From the NCBI RefSeq assembly GCF_002854065.1, contig NZ_CP024147.1: a stretch of DNA of 64,000 nt. One strand, given 5' to 3'. The notes beneath the pieces were generated by a model. That model was not told where the DNA came from, made no database searches, and saw nothing but the letters and a program-made list of their open reading frames with translations. Of this stretch, positions 3,066 to 57,008 are shown one piece after another (positions within the stretch are counted from its first letter, which is position 1; every line of letters begins with the position of its first letter). Position numbers and translations under genes: made by a program. This stretch comes from Escherichia coli (lineage in GTDB: Bacteria > Pseudomonadota > Gammaproteobacteria > Enterobacterales > Enterobacteriaceae).

Positions 3066-3683
3066 AACTCGCCCTTTGTCATAGACGTGCTGCGTATTGT
3101 TCAGATAATGAGAATCCATTTGTATCATGAAGCACGGTTGTTTTGCGGTAGGTTAAGATCAAAATTGCGCTGATTAATCCTGGTTATCGGGACAAGCTCG
3201 GTGATAAAAAGCGAATTATCTCTCGTCGCAAACAAACTATCACATGAATATTATCACCATAATGAATTTATTGTTTGTCCTTTACGAACCAGAATAATAG
3301 ATAACCGGGCACGTTTTTTAATGTTAACAAGTTAAAATCATCAGATTTCATTGAATAAATATTGGTTGTGTGATTTTTCATTCTGCGGGAAGGGATATCA
3401 TTTAATTATAAATTAAATGAATGTGATTTCTGTTTTTCATTAAGTATTCCTAACAACTTAATGTAGATATTTTAAATGTCTCCAGGCTATTTCACCAGGT
3501 TATCATTTGATGCTAACCTTCTGACACATGCAGTGGAGTTGTTGTGCAGCAGGAGTATGCTGATATGAAAGTGAATGCTAAGGATAATTTATTCGCTTAA
3601 TCTATTAATTTGCTGGAAACATTTAAGGAATGAATATCCTGAATAAACCATCATAATTTTTAGGCAGTGGATGTGGAGGAAAT

Positions 3684-21143: not shown

Positions 21144-21863
21144 ATGGCTACCCCACACATTAATGCAGAAATGGGCGATTTCGCTGACGTAGTTTTGATG
21201 CCAGGCGACCCGCTGCGTGCGAAGTATATTGCTGAAACTTTCCTTGAAGATGCCCGTGAAGTGAACAACGTTCGCGGTATGCTGGGCTTCACCGGTACTT
21301 ACAAAGGCCGCAAAATTTCCGTAATGGGTCACGGTATGGGTATCCCGTCCTGCTCCATCTACACCAAAGAACTGATCACCGATTTCGGCGTGAAGAAAAT
21401 TATCCGCGTGGGTTCCTGTGGCGCAGTTCTGCCGCACGTAAAACTGCGCGACGTCGTTATCGGTATGGGTGCCTGCACCGATTCCAAAGTTAACCGCATC
21501 CGTTTTAAAGATCATGACTTTGCCGCTATCGCTGACTTTGACATGGTGCGTAACGCGGTAGACGCGGCTAAAGCACTGGGCATTGATGCTCGCGTTGGTA
21601 ACCTGTTCTCCGCTGACCTGTTCTACTCTCCGGACGGCGAAATGTTCGACGTGATGGAAAAATACGGCATCCTCGGCGTGGAAATGGAAGCGGCTGGTAT
21701 CTACGGCGTCGCTGCAGAATTTGGCGCGAAAGCCCTGACCATCTGTACCGTGTCTGACCACATCCGCACTCACGAGCAGACCACTGCCGCTGAGCGTCAG
21801 ACCACCTTCAACGACATGATCAAAATCGCACTGGAATCCGTTCTGCTGGGCGATAAAGAGTAA
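21144..21863 (+). CDS. deoD: Purine nucleoside phosphorylase
   Basis: 239 aa [28 protein letters not shown]. Confidence 0.95.
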
Positions 21864-21894
21864 TTGTGTTTCGCTGAAAGGCGATTGTCGTGTG

Positions 21895-21925
21895 AAGCCG
21901 GAGTGGGAGACTGCTCCGGCTTTTT
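21895..21925 (+). terminator. Rho-independent terminator of the deo operon
   Basis: Hairpin agccggagtgggagactgctccggct followed by TTTTT. Confidence 0.8.
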
Positions 21926-21993
21926 AGTATCTATTCATCAATAGCAACTGATTTATAGATTTACTATTATTTTTCATATGGATAGAAAATAAA

Positions 21994-22026
21994 ATCTATT
22001 CAAGTATCTATTCACGAATCTATTCA
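21994..22026. repeat. Three direct repeats of ATCTATTCA at 12-bp spacing (fourth copy at 21929-21937)
   Basis: atctattcaagt atctattcacga atctattcattt read directly from the sequence. Confidence 0.7.
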
Positions 22027-22137
22027 TTTATGTTCAGCCGTCATCCAGGAAGGGCATATCAGCAACTCTGGTGGACAACCATAAATTTCTGCCATTTTGC
22101 TTTTGATGTTTGAGCTAAACCGTTCCGTCTTTTCGAT

Positions 22138-22287
22138 CTATTTTAGAGAATTAATCGAGATACCTAACATTTTACTTACTTCAGCAAGCGATAATTTATG
22201 CCTGATACGCACGGCGGCTAGCCAGGAAATACGCTGGCTTAACATTAAATTGATAATCTCCCGCTCCTGGTTTTCCAGATCGATCAT
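22138..22287 (-). pseudogene. 49-codon ORF encoding a truncated XRE-like helix-turn-helix; possible remnant of the N-terminus of HTH-HipA-like YjjJ
   Basis: MIDLENQEREIINLMLSQRISWLAAVRIRHKLSLAEVSKMLGISINSLK*; SD aggaaggg upstream; starts 31 bp beyond lplA stop; no long HipA-like ORF between deoD and lplA. Confidence 0.4.
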
Positions 22288-22318
22288 ATTCCCTTCCTTT
22301 GGTATTTTAATCAGCGAG

Positions 22319-23335
22319 TTACCTTACCGCCCCCGCTATCCACGTCGACAACTCCCGTAGCTCTTTTTCCTGGTCCGGGAAGTCAACCAACAGCGCTTCG
22401 CACTCTTGTTGCAGCATATCCGCGCGGTACAGGCAGCCTTGCAGTCGCCCGGCGAGGGCTTCCAGCGGCGCGGGGTTGAGGCTGTCGGTAAACACCTGGG
22501 CGCGGGTGATATGGCCTTTTTCAACGTCGAAATGCAGTTCCACGCCGCCCCAGGTAAAGCGTTCATCCAGCAGATGCGAGAATGCCGGAGCCTGACCGAA
22601 GTTCCATTCCCAGCTACTCTGGCGGGCAAAGGTTTCGGCGAAGTTCGGCAAGTCTGGCGTTTTGTCCGGGGAGATGATTTCCGCTTCTACACGCTCGCCA
22701 TAATGAGCGAAAAAGGCCTCGGTTATGGCCTCGCAAACCTGCTCATGGGTGATCCCCGGCAACAGCTCGGTGAGGTTGGTCACGCGGGAACGTACCGACG
22801 TAATGCCTTTCGCCGCCAGTTTCTTTTTATCCGGATTGAGATAGTTTGCCAGGCGACTAAGGTCGGCATTGAGCAGCAAGGTGCCGTGGTGGAAGCCACG
22901 ATCTTTGGTTTCGCGATAGGCCGATCCTGAGACTTTGCGGTCGCCTTCGGCGGTTTTCACCACCAGATCGTTACGCCCGGACGCTTCGGCGCTGACGCCA
23001 AGCGCGTTCAGCGCATTGAGCACAATCGACGTGGAGATGGTTTTATCGTACTCCGGCTTGCCAGCCATAAAGGTAAAGCAGGTATTGCCGAGATCGTGGA
23101 ACACCGCGCCGCCACCGCTACTGCGCCGTGCCAGGCGGACGTTATCTTCTTCCATCCGCCGGGTATTACACTCTTTCCACGGGTTCTGCGCGCGACCAAT
23201 CACTACCGTGTCGGCATTGCGCCAGAGAAACAGAACGCGCTGCGTGGCGGGCATCTGGCGAAAAATACACTCCTCCACCGCCAGGTTAAACCACGGGTCG
23301 TAAGAGTCAGAGATGAGCAGGCGTAATGTGGACAT
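22319..23335 (-). CDS. lplA: Lipoate-protein ligase A
   Basis: 338 aa [22 protein letters not shown]. Confidence 0.95.
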
Positions 23336-37395: not shown

Positions 37396-38748
37396 ATGTT
37401 GAAATCCCCCCTGTTCTGGAAAATGACCACCCTGTTTGGTGCAGTATTGCTGTTGTTGATTCCGATAATGCTGATTCGGCAGGTGATTGTCGAACGTGCC
37501 GATTACCGTAGCGATGTGGAAGATGCGATTCGTCAAAGTACCAGCGGGCCGCAAAAACTCGTTGGGCCGCTTATCGCTATTCCTGTGACCGAGCTTTATA
37601 CGGTGCAGGAAGACGATAAAACCGTGGAGCGGAAACGAAGTTTTATCCATTTTTGGTTACCTGAGTCATTGATGGTTGATGGCAATCAGAACGTGGAAGA
37701 ACGCAAGATAGGGATTTATACCGGTCAGGTCTGGCACAGTGATTTAACGCTAAAAGCCGATTTCGATGTTTCGCGTCTTAGCGAACTCGACGCGCCAAAT
37801 ATCACCTTTGGCAAGCCATTTATTGTGATTAGCGTCGGGGATGCGCGTGGTATTGGTGTGGTGAAAGCGCCTGAAGTTAACGGAACGGCGCTGACCATTG
37901 AACCCGGCACCGGGTTAGAGCAAGGCGGGCAGGGCGTGCATATCCCTTTACCCGAAGGGGACTGGCGGAAGCAGAACCTGAAGCTGAATATGGCCCTGAA
38001 TTTAAGCGGTACCGGCGATCTTTCTGTGGTGCCTGCCGGGCGTAATAGCGAAATGACCTTAACCAGCAACTGGCCGCATCCCAGTTTTTTAGGTGATTTT
38101 CTACCAGCCAAACGGGAAGTTAGTGAGTCAGGTTTTCAGGCGCAATGGCAAAGCAGCTGGTTTGCTAATAATCTCGGTGAGCGTTTTGCTTCAGGCAATG
38201 ATACCGGCTGGGAAAACTTCCCCGCGTTTAGCGTCGCAGTGACGACGCCAGCCGATCAATACCAATTAACTGACCGGGCGACTAAGTATGCCATTCTGCT
38301 GATTGCGCTGACTTTTATGGCGTTCTTTGTTTTTGAAACGCTCACCGCGCAGCGCTTACACCCAATGCAATATTTGCTGGTGGGGCTTTCATTGGTGATG
38401 TTTTATTTGCTCTTGCTGGCGCTTTCTGAACATACCGGTTTTACCGTGGCATGGATAATCGCCAGTCTGATTGGGGCGTTAATGAACGGTATTTATTTGC
38501 AGGCGGTATTGAAAGGTTGGCGCAACAGCATGTTGTTTACCCTCGCGCTGTTGTTGCTGGATGGTGTGATGTGGGGACTGCTCAACTCTGCCGATAGCGC
38601 GCTGTTGTTGGGAACCAGTGTGCTGGTGGTGGCGCTGGCCGGCATGATGTTTGTGACCCGTAATATCGACTGGTATGCGTTTTCACTGCCGAAAATGAAA
38701 GCCAGTAAAGAAGTTACAATGGACGATGAATTACGTATCTGGAAATAA
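37396..38748 (+). CDS. creD: Inner membrane protein CreD
   Basis: 450 aa; synteny. Confidence 0.9.
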   Translation: MLKSPLFWKMTTLFGAVLLLLIPIMLIRQVIVERADYRSDVEDAIRQSTSGPQKLVGPLIAIPVTELYTVQEDDKTVERKRSFIHFWLPESLMVDGNQNVEERKIGIYTGQVWHSDLTLKADFDVSRLSELDAPNITFGKPFIVISVGDARGIGVVKAPEVNGTALTIEPGTGLEQGGQGVHIPLPEGDWRKQNLKLNMALNLSGTGDLSVVPAGRNSEMTLTSNWPHPSFLGDFLPAKREVSESGFQAQWQSSWFANNLGERFASGNDTGWENFPAFSVAVTTPADQYQLTDRATKYAILLIALTFMAFFVFETLTAQRLHPMQYLLVGLSLVMFYLLLLALSEHTGFTVAWIIASLIGALMNGIYLQAVLKGWRNSMLFTLALLLLDGVMWGLLNSADSALLLGTSVLVVALAGMMFVTRNIDWYAFSLPKMKASKEVTMDDELRIWK

Positions 38749-56526: not shown

Positions 56527-57008
56527 CTATCTGCCGTTCAGCTAATGCCTGAGACAGACAGCCTCAAGCACCCGCCGCTATTATATCGCTCTCTTTAACC
56601 CATTCTGTTTTATCGATTCTAATCCGGAAGACGCCTCGCATTTTTATGGCGTAATTTTTTAATGATTTAATTATTTAACTTTAATTTATCTCTTCATCGC
56701 AATTATTGACGACAAGCTGGATTATTTTTGAAATATTGGCCTAACAAACATCGCCGACTGACAACAAATTAATTATTACTTTTCCTAATTAATCCCTCAG
56801 AAATCCTCACCTTAAGCTATGATTATCAGGGCTTAGGGTCACCCGTCAGCGCTTACAGCCGTCAAAAACGCATCTCACCGCTGATGGCGCAAATTCTTCA
56901 ATAGCTCGTAAAAAACGAATTATTCCTACACTATAATCTGATTTTAACGATGATTCGTGCGGGGTAAAATAGTAAAAACGATCTATTCACCTGAAAGAGA
57001 AATAAAAA

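What the first reader, a model, noticed from the sequence alone, without database searches (positions are those of the whole stretch)
21864..22318. deoD-lplA spacer lacks the HipA-like kinase gene yjjJ; contains a 49-codon HTH fragment and triple ATCTATTCA repeats
In K-12, as I recall, a ~440-aa HipA-family kinase gene (yjjJ/hipH) sits between deoD and lplA. Here the interval is only 455 bp. It contains a minus-strand 49-codon ORF with a good SD that encodes the first helices of an XRE-type HTH and then stops, as expected for the N-terminus of a deleted or truncated HTH-kinase gene. Next to it are three direct copies of ATCTATTCA with exact 12-bp phasing (21994, 22006, 22018) and a fourth at 21929, in AT-rich DNA. 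These could be a protein-binding array such as an operator for the HTH, or a deletion scar.
Basis: partly seen in the sequence, partly recalled or inferred. Interest (0 to 1): 0.45.

Follow-up and report, generated by a model that had tools for sequence, protein, structure and literature searches.

The report
Orphan HipH operator beside dead regulator
This E. coli strain lacks the toxin-kinase gene hipH (yjjJ) but keeps its upstream control DNA, four ATCTATTCA boxes that comparative data suggest are HipH's own, so far undescribed, binding site; beside them lies an unrelated small regulator gene broken by a stop codon.

Summary
The deoD-lplA spacer is 455 bp, has no yjjJ/hipH, holds a 49-codon minus-strand ORF, and carries ATCTATTCA at 21929, 21994, 22006 and 22018.

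- The 49 codons are not a YjjJ N-terminus. hipH lies on the other strand in K-12, and the two proteins show no similarity.
- They are the first 49 codons of a separate 87-codon XRE-type HTH gene downstream of lplA. It is intact in many E. coli, Shigella and E. marmotae, and is stopped here by Q50->TAG.
- This short allele is the majority form: 4057 complete E. coli genomes carry it and 1348 carry hipH. The two are mutually exclusive.

The repeats are the interesting part.
- They are identical in K-12 and end 3 nt before the hipH ATG.
- The same 12-bp-phased boxes precede hipH homologues (30-95% identity) in dozens of genera.
- HipH subfamilies with a different HTH recognition helix carry a correspondingly different box (SQ[AP]TxSR with ATCTATTCA; SR[AP]TLMR with ATCGTTTCA).

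I infer that the boxes are HipH's autoregulatory operator, left orphaned here. Binding is untested, and one ChIP-exo study saw no YjjJ binding. I found no paper describing the motif.

The parts
21144..21863 (+). deoD (purine-nucleoside phosphorylase), left border of the spacer
   Evidence: ORF. Annotated as deoD in the identical strain M217.
21894..21925 (+). deoD intrinsic terminator: 13-bp GC-rich hairpin followed by a T run
   Evidence: RNA fold -24.1 kcal/mol, z = -4.0. Conserved in the K-12-type allele. The consensus scan missed it.
21929..21937 (+). Distal HipH box ATCTATTCA, directly after the terminator T run and 65 bp upstream of the proximal array
   Evidence: Exact match. Same position in K-12 and E. 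albertii. A distal box 65-77 bp upstream of the array recurs in most hipH loci of Enterobacterales and Xanthomonadales.
21971..22000 (+). Relic hipH core promoter, by analogy: -35 TTTTCA (21971-21976), 18-nt spacer, -10 TCTATT (21995-22000, inside box 1)
   Evidence: Shimada et al. 2014 (PMC3946193) list TTTTCA-18-TCTATT as the constitutive RpoD promoter in the K-12 deoD-yjjJ spacer. The same hexamers and spacing are read directly in the window, and TTTTCA is invariant in the alignment. Activity was not tested, and the tool's consensus scan does not call it.
21994..22026 (+). Proximal array of three HipH boxes (21994, 22006, 22018) in exact 12-bp phase; inferred HipH operator, orphaned here
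   Evidence: Exact matches. 100% identical to K-12, where the array ends 3 nt before the hipH ATG. The same array precedes hipH homologues in 69 of 120 scan loci and in box-blind, protein-selected loci. The box co-varies with the HipH recognition helix.
22030..22032 (+). ATG at the position of the hipH start codon; homology with the hipH allele ends here (left junction)
   Evidence: Alignment with the K-12-type allele. On the minus strand these bases encode His86 of the XRE gene.
22024..22287 (-). 87-codon XRE-family HTH gene, a pseudogene in this lineage; its TGA stop is the last 3 nt of box 3
   Evidence: PGAP annotates 'helix-turn-helix domain-containing protein, internal stop' in the identical strain. 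Translation. Intact 87-aa orthologues exist. The repaired protein passes Pfam HTH_3 (28.5 bits against a cut-off of 23). dN/dS is 0.10-0.27 in most pairs of intact alleles (0.00-0.40 overall, on 1-16 substitutions per pair).
22138..22140 (-). Premature stop TAG at codon 50 (CAG Gln in intact alleles; + strand CTA instead of CTG)
   Evidence: The exact 49-mer carrying TAG is in 1687 complete E. coli genomes. The CAG version matches in 2036.
22138..22287 (-).
   Evidence: Pfam HTH_3 gives 16.3 bits (below the cut-off of 23), covering profile positions 1-26 of 55.
22307..22318 (+). TTAATCAGCGAG next to the lplA stop: an 11/12 match to K-12 TTAATGAGCGAG (hipH start codon plus codons 2-3); a possible relic of the hipH 5' end at the right junction
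   Evidence: It is the only match of 11 or more out of 12 between the 292-bp insert (both strands) and the whole K-12 hipH region, and it falls at the junction in both sequences. Suggestive only.
22319..23335 (-). lplA (lipoate-protein ligase), right border; homology with the hipH allele resumes exactly at its stop codon

Best explanation
The spacer is the common 'short' allele of the deoD-lplA slot. It has two parts.

(1) The 5' control region of the toxin-kinase gene hipH (yjjJ) is retained without its gene. It consists of:
- a distal ATCTATTCA box just after the deoD terminator;
- a weak sigma-70-type promoter whose -10 lies inside box 1;
- three proximal boxes in 12-bp phase that, in hipH-bearing genomes, run up to the start codon.
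I infer that these boxes are the autoregulatory operator read by HipH's own N-terminal HTH. HipH bound to the proximal boxes would cover the -10 element, the transcription start and the leader. The distal box would add cooperativity or a DNA loop, giving negative autoregulation of a toxin that has no separate antitoxin. In this genome the operator has no cognate protein and is a relic.

(2) Where the hipH coding sequence would be, there is an unrelated 87-codon XRE-family HTH gene. It is co-oriented with lplA and starts 31 bp downstream of it.

Shown: the allele structure, the junctions, the pseudogene state, the association of boxes with hipH, and the helix-box covariation.
Inferred: that HipH binds the boxes, that binding represses, and where the promoter lies.
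For: Allele structure:
- The identical strain is annotated deoD / HTH pseudogene (internal stop) / lplA. The K-12 type is deoD / yjjJ(+) / lplA.
- 4057 genomes carry the short allele and 1348 carry hipH; hipH is single-copy and the two exclude each other.
- Homology ends at the hipH ATG on the left and at the lplA stop on the right.

XRE gene:
- Intact 87-aa orthologues exist in E. coli, Shigella and E. marmotae.
- The repaired protein passes HTH_3.
- dN/dS is mostly 0.10-0.27 between intact alleles.
- A 44%-identical 87-aa homologue lies in the same position downstream of lplA in another enterobacterial genus.

Boxes:
- All four are identical in K-12, although the 56 bp between them are almost unalignable.
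- The two-box pattern gave more than 120 loci in the 100,044-species collection, against about 9 expected by chance (my arithmetic). In 69 of them a HipH homologue starts -30 to +200 nt downstream, always in the same orientation.
- Of 12 HipH loci chosen by protein only, all four chromosomal ones carry exact boxes (Salmonella, Kosakonia and Erwinia with a 2-3-box proximal array plus a distal box; Pluralibacter with one exact proximal box and a distal pair). All five SQPTxSR-helix plasmid loci carry ATCTATTCA-like boxes at the start codon, exact in one and 1-mismatch or TATTCA-core variants in the others (Aeromonas has a single proximal box).
- The deoD-box-hipH-lplA order is conserved across Enterobacteriaceae.

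Covariation:
- 57 of 57 recognisable helices next to ATCTATTCA are SQ[AP]TxSR.
- 6 of 6 protein-selected Polaromonas-type HipH (helix SR[AP]TLMR) have ATCGTTTCA in the same architecture.
- Allochromatium (DRATLLR) has ATCGTTGCA x2 at 12 bp, and Vitreoscilla (SVATLHR) has ATCTTCTCA.

Literature:
- The HipH N-terminal HTH 'may function to bind DNA' and its regulation is unknown (PMC8262856).
- hipH is regulated at its promoter, and the HTH is needed for toxicity and nucleoid localisation (PMC11452175).
- Reg-Seq found two repressor sites in the yjjJ promoter (PMC7567609).
- The SELEX-inferred promoter TTTTCA-18-TCTATT puts the -10 in box 1 (PMC3946193).

Relic status:
- 1307 of 1348 hipH+ genomes keep a perfect array plus leader, whereas at most 2219 of 4057 short-allele genomes do.
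- Short-allele variants show box-1 substitutions, loss of one 12-bp unit, and changes in 3 of 4 boxes in the E. marmotae type.
- Arrays without hipH also occur in Serratia, Pantoea, Erwinia, Buttiauxella and an unnamed enterobacterium.
Against: - No binding experiment exists. ChIP-exo of myc-tagged YjjJ in K-12 found no binding sites at all (PMC8464067). That was done at native, probably very low, expression and under one set of conditions.
- Reg-Seq attributed one of the two yjjJ repressor sites to MarA, not to YjjJ. I could not see where those sites lie relative to the boxes.
- The 120-locus scan was selected for two perfect boxes, so it cannot show how many hipH genes lack boxes. The box-blind sample is small (12 + 5 loci).
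- The consensus promoter scan calls no promoter in K-12, Salmonella or the window. The promoter position rests on one published inference.
- Within the short allele the boxes are only mildly decayed. The window itself keeps all four perfect, so residual function cannot be excluded.
- The contrast in box conservation between hipH+ and short alleles is confounded by clonal population structure.
Confidence: 0.72

Rival explanations
1. One reading: the 49-codon ORF is the N-terminus of a deleted or truncated yjjJ, and the repeats are its operator or a deletion scar.
For: yjjJ is indeed missing. Both YjjJ and the ORF have an N-terminal HTH.
Against: yjjJ is on the opposite strand in K-12. There is no sequence similarity, and the HTH classes differ. 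The ORF continues as a full 87-codon gene in other strains. The repeats pre-exist upstream of intact yjjJ, so they are not a scar.
Confidence: 0.01
2. The boxes are bound by the local 87-aa XRE protein. They would then be its operator, or a roadblock or terminator-like site at its 3' end, and are kept in the short allele for that reason.
For: The XRE gene's stop codon lies in box 3, and all four boxes are perfect in the window. A possible degenerate box (GTCTGTTCA) sits at the end of the 44%-identical homologue in L123.
Against: The boxes occur in dozens of genera that lack this XRE gene, which is nearly confined to Escherichia. They lie at the 3' end of the XRE gene, not at its promoter. The E. 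marmotae type has an intact XRE gene but 3 of 4 boxes mutated. L123 has the XRE homologue and no exact box. In the window the XRE protein is truncated inside its HTH.
Confidence: 0.06
3. The boxes are sites for a different, widely conserved host factor (for example MarA, as Reg-Seq suggested, H-NS, or a response regulator that reads direct repeats). HipH does not bind them.
For: Reg-Seq assigned one yjjJ repressor site to MarA. Shimada et al. mark the spacer as H-NS associated. ChIP-exo found no YjjJ binding.
Against: The box travels with hipH onto plasmids and into Betaproteobacteria, Xanthomonadales and Verrucomicrobia. It also changes when the HipH helix changes, which a host factor would not explain. 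The array is single-copy in E. coli genomes, so it is not part of a regulon.
Confidence: 0.13
4. The repeats act at the RNA level, as a repeated AUCUAUUCA element in the hipH 5' leader that controls translation or stability. hipH has no obvious Shine-Dalgarno sequence.
For: In Enterobacteriaceae the proximal boxes would lie largely in the leader, immediately 5' of an ATG without a clear SD.
Against: The distal box lies upstream of the -35 element, next to the terminator of the preceding gene. In Polaromonas-type loci the pair is distal and only one box is proximal. Plasmid-type loci have a further copy at +152 inside the gene. This geometry fits DNA sites better than a leader element.
Confidence: 0.05

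Closest known systems
hipBA promoter operators bound by HipB (E. coli K-12)
   Same: A Hip-family kinase toxin locus whose promoter region carries several copies of a short operator, read by an HTH protein of the module to give negative autoregulation (described in PMC8262856).
   Different: In hipBA the HTH is a separate XRE-type antitoxin (HipB) and the operators are inverted repeats (from my own knowledge, not tested here). In hipH the HTH is fused to the kinase and gives only a sub-threshold MarR_2 match. The sites are direct repeats in 12-bp phase plus a distal copy. Binding has not been demonstrated.
YjjJ/HipH, monocistronic HipA-homologous kinase (clade X of Gerdes et al. 2021)
   Same: The same chromosomal slot and the same upstream region. 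The boxes, the leader and the ATG are those of hipH.
   Different: The kinase gene itself is absent from the window.
Small XRE/HTH_3 family regulators (Cro/CI-like proteins, HipB/HigA-like antitoxins)
   Same: The repaired 87-aa protein has a complete HTH_3 domain at residues 23-76.
   Different: There is no adjacent toxin gene and no curated family match above threshold in NCBIfam. The family is tiny and almost Escherichia-specific. In the window it is cut within the domain.
Direct-repeat boxes of response regulators (PhoB- or OmpR-type 'boxes')
   Same: Tandem direct repeats of about one helical turn that overlap a promoter. This resemblance is from memory only.
   Different: The phase is 12 bp rather than 10-11 bp, the associated protein is not a response regulator, and the box co-varies with the HipH helix. 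No membership is claimed.

Membership tests
HipH/YjjJ kinase gene (NCBIfam NF007297; Pfam HipA_C) | An ORF of about 440 aa with a HipA_C kinase domain between deoD and lplA | tested here: not met
   K-12 YjjJ scores 675.7 bits on NF007297 and matches HipA_C. The window has no such ORF in the spacer, and tblastn finds no significant match anywhere in the 64 kb.
HipH/YjjJ kinase gene (NCBIfam NF007297; Pfam HipA_C) | The 49-codon ORF is homologous to the YjjJ N-terminal HTH (helix ISQATFSR) | tested here: not met
   BLASTP best E is 0.2 over 6 residues. The ORF is on the opposite strand to yjjJ in K-12.
XRE-family HTH protein (Pfam PF01381 HTH_3) | A complete HTH_3 domain above the gathering score | tested here: met
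   This applies to the 87-aa gene with codon 50 repaired to Gln: 28.5 bits against a cut-off of 23, profile positions 1-55 of 55. It is not met by the 49-aa product actually encoded here: 16.3 bits, profile positions 1-26.
Pseudogene by nonsense mutation | A premature stop relative to intact orthologues that are under purifying selection | tested here: met
   TAG replaces CAG at codon 50. PGAP flags 'internal stop' in the identical strain. dN/dS is mostly 0.10-0.27 between intact alleles.
Autoregulatory operator of a type II toxin-antitoxin-like module | Repeated sites overlapping the promoter or leader of the toxin gene | tested here: met
   In hipH-bearing genomes the array ends 1-25 nt before the start codon in most loci (up to about 125 nt in a few). 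The published -10 (TCTATT) lies in box 1.
Autoregulatory operator of a type II toxin-antitoxin-like module | The sites co-occur and co-vary with the DNA-binding domain of the module | tested here: met
   69 of 120 scan loci and the box-blind loci show the association. Three helix variants are paired with three box variants, one of them in 6 of 6 loci.
Autoregulatory operator of a type II toxin-antitoxin-like module | Demonstrated binding of the module's protein, and repression | not testable with these tools
   No binding data are available. ChIP-exo for YjjJ was negative. Reg-Seq reports two repressor sites in the yjjJ promoter.
Autoregulatory operator of a type II toxin-antitoxin-like module | The cognate regulator is present in the same genome (functional operator) | tested here: not met
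   hipH is absent from the window and absent from genomes with the short allele. Only the 64-kb window of this genome itself could be searched.
Intrinsic (Rho-independent) terminator | A GC-rich hairpin followed by a T run at the 3' end of deoD | tested here: met
   13-bp stem, -24.1 kcal/mol, z = -4.0, followed by TTTTT.

The most novel reading that the evidence does not exclude
The orphan hipH control region is still active. With no HipH to repress it, the relic promoter (-10 in box 1) would fire constitutively. That would produce a + strand transcript antisense to the XRE gene, running convergently into the 3' end of lplA; K-12 hipH-lplA is already listed as an excludon. The four perfect boxes could also act as a chromosomal decoy or landing site for HipH homologues carried on E. 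coli plasmids, which have the same ATCTATTCA boxes and an SQPTISR helix. The hipH/short polymorphism would then be a regulatory switch for neighbouring genes and for incoming toxin modules, not only a presence/absence difference.
Probability: 0.12. Interest if true: 0.6.

Novelty: new variant of a known kind. Interest (0 to 1): 0.5.

Why it matters
HipH/YjjJ is a Hip-family toxin kinase with no antitoxin gene. The literature states that how it is controlled is unknown and that its N-terminal HTH 'may' bind DNA (PMC8262856).

The comparative data give a concrete and cheap test:
- a 9-bp box, ATCTATTCA;
- a fixed architecture of 12-bp-phased direct repeats at the start codon plus one distant copy;
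- a helix-to-box code across subfamilies.

If confirmed, this would explain autoregulation of a single-gene toxin module. It would also provide specificity-swap experiments, and it could explain why ChIP-exo at native expression saw nothing.

For genome annotation:
- The deoD-lplA slot of most E. coli carries an orphan operator plus a small XRE gene that is often broken. The XRE gene should not be read as a hipH remnant.
- About three quarters of complete E. coli genomes lack hipH. That matters for generalising K-12 or UPEC results on HipH-dependent persistence.

Tried and rejected
- BLASTP of the repaired 87-aa protein against YjjJ found nothing.
- NCBIfam gave no family above threshold for the XRE protein.
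- An exhaustive HMMER search of 1.84 billion representative proteins found only fragments of the same Escherichia gene plus two homologues at 44-45% identity, so no donor family could be identified.
- Rfam on 21700-22500 gave only a sub-threshold eukaryotic snoRNA hit, which is noise.
- Consensus promoter and terminator scans of the window, K-12 and Salmonella spacers found no promoter upstream of hipH and missed the deoD terminator. The single minus-strand promoter-like hit, at 22310-22283, overlaps the XRE start codon and is at chance level.
- A PDB sequence search with YjjJ found no solved relative.
- A full-text search for ATCTATTCA / TGAATAGAT returned only unrelated primer and shRNA sequences. 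A search for HipH + HipA + 'direct repeats' returned nothing.
- The supplement of the 2025 Reg-Seq preprint does not mention yjjJ.
- A weak tblastn hit of a plasmid HipH to window 37526-37753 (E 0.004) lies on the strand opposite creC/creD, in a spurious frame; I rejected it.
- I considered a simple deletion of hipH and rejected it. The 292 bp between the junctions are unrelated to hipH, apart from a 12-nt string at the right edge.
- I considered that the XRE ORF is a chance ORF and rejected it. It shows purifying selection, and a diverged homologue occupies the same position in another genus.
Full report
OBSERVATION. The window is an Escherichia coli chromosome segment with the order deoCABD, spacer, lplA, ytjB, serB, radA. 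deoD ends at 21863 and the lplA stop codon (minus strand) begins at 22319, so the spacer is 455 bp as stated. The 49-codon minus-strand ORF is at 22138..22287. ATCTATTCA occurs at 21929, 21994, 22006 and 22018, and once more at 56981. That is 5 matches against 0.40 expected, and none of 100 shuffles reached 5. The fifth copy lies 20 nt upstream of the nhaA ORF and is at chance level.

TWO ALLELES OF ONE SLOT. The spacer was compared with 5,426 complete E. coli genomes.
- 5,421 genomes match it. In 4,057 the whole 455 bp is present at 92-100% identity.
- In about 1,300 genomes only the first 169 nt match, at 82-84% identity, and the annotated feature there is yjjJ.
- K-12 hipH/yjjJ DNA is found in 1,348 genomes, always once and always on the chromosome.

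The two states are therefore mutually exclusive alleles. The hipH-less form is the majority, and hipH has not moved elsewhere. No HipH-like coding sequence exists in the 64-kb window. A strain identical to the window across the spacer (M217) is annotated deoD / 'helix-turn-helix domain-containing protein, pseudogene, internal stop' (minus strand) / lplA. A K-12-type strain is annotated deoD / yjjJ (plus strand, 443 aa) / lplA.

THE 49-CODON ORF. This ORF cannot be the 5' end of yjjJ.
- yjjJ is transcribed in the same direction as deoD, and the ORF runs in the opposite direction.
- BLASTP between the two proteins finds nothing (best E 0.2).
- YjjJ's N-terminal HTH gives only a sub-threshold match to MarR_2, whereas the ORF matches XRE/HTH_3.

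Reading through the stop gives an 87-codon frame, 22024..22287. They all have Gln (CAG) at position 50, where the window has TAG.

The repaired protein passes the Pfam HTH_3 gathering score over the whole domain (28.5 bits against 23). The 49-aa stub covers only profile positions 1-26 and scores 16.3 bits. Most pairs of intact alleles give dN/dS of 0.10-0.27 (range 0.00-0.40), on only 1-16 substitutions per pair. This indicates a real gene where it is intact.

The exact 49-mer containing TAG is in 1,687 complete genomes, and the CAG version matches in 2,036. Other strains carry a frameshift or what look like insertion-truncated forms, so the gene is often lost.

The family is tiny. An exhaustive search of 1.84 billion representative proteins found only fragments of this gene and two homologues at 44-45% identity. 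One of them (P0079, 87 aa) also lies directly downstream of lplA, facing the end of deoD. Its contig has an lplA only about 80% identical in DNA to that of E. coli, so it comes from another enterobacterial genus. The small XRE gene is thus a second, older occupant of this slot, not a chance ORF.

JUNCTIONS. On the left, homology with the hipH allele runs through the deoD terminator, the distal box, a poorly alignable 56 bp and the triple box, and stops right after the ATG that is the hipH start codon (window 22030-22032). On the right, homology resumes exactly at the lplA stop codon. The 292 bp in between are unrelated to hipH. The XRE frame ends ...Glu-His-Lys-stop, so its last two codons and its TGA stop lie in the old hipH leader and in box 3.

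The only match of 11 or more out of 12 between the insert and the whole K-12 hipH region is TTAATCAGCGAG at 22307-22318, directly against lplA. It matches TTAATGAGCGAG, the hipH start codon plus codons 2 and 3. This may be the real relic of the hipH 5' end. If so, the XRE segment was inserted between box 3 and the ATG, and the hipH body was then deleted. I treat this as suggestive only.

THE REPEATS. In K-12 all four boxes are present and identical, and the triple array ends 3 nt before the hipH ATG (...ATCTATTCATTAATG). The 56 bp between the distal box and the array differ almost completely among K-12, E. albertii and the window.

I scanned one genome from each of 100,044 species for two boxes in 12-bp phase (ATCTATTCANNNATCTATTCA, 18 specified bases; about 9 hits expected by chance, by my arithmetic).
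- In 69 of them a HipH homologue (31-95% identity to the best of four queries) starts between -30 and +200 nt of the array, always in the same orientation.
- Six loci had too little flanking sequence to judge, and 45 had no hipH.
- The hosts include Enterobacterales, Xanthomonadales, Burkholderiales, other Gamma- and Betaproteobacteria and a Verrucomicrobium.
- In Enterobacteriaceae and Erwiniaceae the order deoD, boxes, hipH, lplA is conserved. hipH is therefore ancestral at this site and the XRE allele is derived.

Because that set was selected on the boxes, I also took HipH loci chosen by protein similarity alone.
- Four chromosomal loci (Salmonella, Kosakonia, Pluralibacter, Erwinia) all have a distal box near -100. 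Salmonella, Kosakonia and Erwinia have 2-3 proximal boxes at about -36/-24/-12; Pluralibacter has one exact proximal box at -24 and a near-exact second copy beside the distal box.
- Eight plasmid loci were examined. The five whose recognition helix reads SQPTxSR have ATCTATTCA-like boxes at the start codon (pE2-2, pCC32, Comamonas, Aeromonas, Diaphorobacter). In three of them a further copy lies at exactly +152 inside the gene.

COVARIATION. Next to ATCTATTCA arrays, 57 of 57 recognisable helices read SQ[AP]TxSR. The three plasmid loci with a different helix have a different repeated word in the same layout:
- Polaromonas, SRATLMR with ATCGTTTCA;
- Allochromatium, DRATLLR with ATCGTTGCA, two copies 12 bp apart;
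- Vitreoscilla, SVATLHR with ATCTTCTCA.

Five further Polaromonas-type proteins (61-80% identical, helix SR[AP]TLMR) were picked from a protein search without looking at the DNA. All five have ATCGTTTCA. In four of the five, as in the original Polaromonas locus, one copy abuts the ATG and one or two copies lie 65-90 bp upstream, paired in 12-bp phase where two are present; in the fifth, all copies lie 65-135 bp upstream. A box that changes when the recognition helix changes, on chromosomes and plasmids of unrelated hosts, is what a cognate operator predicts. A host-factor site or a chance repeat would not behave this way.

MECHANISM AND LITERATURE.
- Gerdes et al. describe HipH as a monocistronic HipA homologue whose N-terminal HTH 'may function to bind DNA' and whose control 'remains unknown' (PMC8262856).
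- An eLife 2024 study shows that hipH is regulated at its promoter and that the HTH is required for toxicity and nucleoid localisation (PMC11452175).
- Reg-Seq assigned the yjjJ promoter a (0 activators, 2 repressors) architecture, with one site attributed to MarA (PMC7567609).
- Shimada et al. list TTTTCA-18-TCTATT as the constitutive RpoD promoter in the deoD-yjjJ spacer (PMC3946193). That -10 is the core of box 1.

The same hexamers and spacing are present in the window (21971-21976 and 21995-22000). My best explanation is therefore as follows. HipH binds head-to-tail to the proximal boxes and covers the -10 element, the transcription start and the leader. The distal copy (upstream, or intragenic in plasmid types) adds cooperativity or a loop. 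The result is negative autoregulation of a toxin that has no antitoxin.

Against this, ChIP-exo of tagged YjjJ found no binding sites (PMC8464067). The consensus promoter scans are silent. I could not see where the Reg-Seq sites fall. I found no paper that describes the motif and no solved HipH structure.

STATE IN THIS WINDOW. Without hipH, the array has no cognate protein.
- Among short-allele variants, box 1 is usually ATCCATTCA or AACCATTCA. One strain has lost exactly one 12-bp unit. The E. marmotae-type allele has substitutions in three of the four boxes, although its XRE gene is intact.
- A perfect array plus leader is found in 1,307 of the 1,348 hipH+ genomes, but in at most 2,219 of the 4,057 short-allele genomes. 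This contrast is confounded by clonal structure.
- Arrays without hipH also occur elsewhere. In Serratia plymuthica, a Pantoea and an Erwinia, hipH is gone and ytjB follows the array. In Buttiauxella noackiae about 67 decayed codons remain. In an unnamed enterobacterium a 217-aa membrane-protein gene starts at the old hipH ATG.

Loss of the toxin gene with survival of its operator is thus recurrent. The array occurs once per E. coli genome, so there is no wider regulon. I cannot exclude residual activity. The relic promoter might fire unrepressed, antisense to the XRE gene and towards lplA; hipH-lplA is listed as an excludon in K-12. E. coli plasmids also carry HipH homologues with the same boxes, and these might bind here.

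VERDICT. As a feature of this window it is ordinary: a common presence/absence allele, a nonsense pseudogene and a leftover regulatory region. That system makes the open question of HipH regulation directly testable. I rate interest at 0.5 and novelty as a new variant of a known kind: an autoregulatory toxin operator, but made of direct repeats and read by an HTH fused to the kinase.

Noticed in passing
window 21938-21993, compared with L002 3575-3630 and L003: The 56 bp between the distal box and the triple array are almost unalignable among the K-12, E. albertii and window alleles, apart from TTTTCA/ATTTCA at a fixed distance. Among short-allele variants, including the E. marmotae type, they are nearly invariant, more so than the boxes.
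   Followed up: partly
L133 (E. coli TB354) 3206-3664: An IS200C transposase gene lies between the deoD terminator and hipH in one hipH+ strain, so the spacer is also an insertion target.
   Followed up: no
L142, L145, L140 and scan loci such as L011, L019, L040: Plasmid-type hipH genes (about 35% identical to K-12) carry an extra box at exactly +152 inside the coding sequence (+158 or +164 in some Burkholderiales). The position is conserved at 65-70% protein identity, which suggests a DNA-level constraint or a looping partner.
   Followed up: partly
L005-L009 (one Verrucomicrobiaceae MAG, five contigs): An identical stretch of at least 230 bp carries two phased ATCTATTCA boxes and two more copies 152 and 514 bp upstream. 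It recurs on five contigs in front of an ORF starting MKVTLQQAATLVQTCGHTNTFLLRGAPGIG, with no hipH nearby. This looks like a repeated or mobile element using the same word.
   Followed up: no
L031-L033 (Methanosarcinaceae MAG): Tandem ATCTATTCAATT units (2 to 5 copies) lie downstream of a sequence shared by two of the three contigs, which I took, from memory, for the 3' end of a 5S rRNA gene (not checked). There is no hipH, so this is probably an unrelated 12-mer microsatellite.
   Followed up: no
L041 (Enterobacteriaceae bacterium RIT691), oriented 2010-2700: A 217-aa predicted membrane-protein gene begins immediately after the box array, where the hipH ATG would be, between deoD and lplA. 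This is a third kind of occupant of the slot that reuses the hipH control region.
   Followed up: partly
L123 1100-1140: The 44%-identical XRE homologue from another genus ends ...ACTGAATGAACAGAC. The reverse complement, GTCTGTTCA, resembles a decayed box at the same place as box 3 in E. coli. This hints that the XRE-box junction is old.
   Followed up: no
proteins P0037, P0042, P0074: Some E. coli records have the XRE protein fused to unrelated tails after residue 56. One chimeric 54-aa product is named 'GhoT/OrtT family toxin' by its source. These are probably insertions in the gene and a misleading name.
   Followed up: no
window 56981-56989: A fifth exact ATCTATTCA lies 20 nt upstream of the GTG-start nhaA ORF. 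It is a single copy, compatible with chance.
   Followed up: partly
window 22030-22113 (+): The retained hipH ATG opens a 27-codon frame (MFSRHPGRAYQQLWWTTINFCHFAFDV) antisense to the XRE gene. It would be translated only if the relic promoter is active.
   Followed up: no
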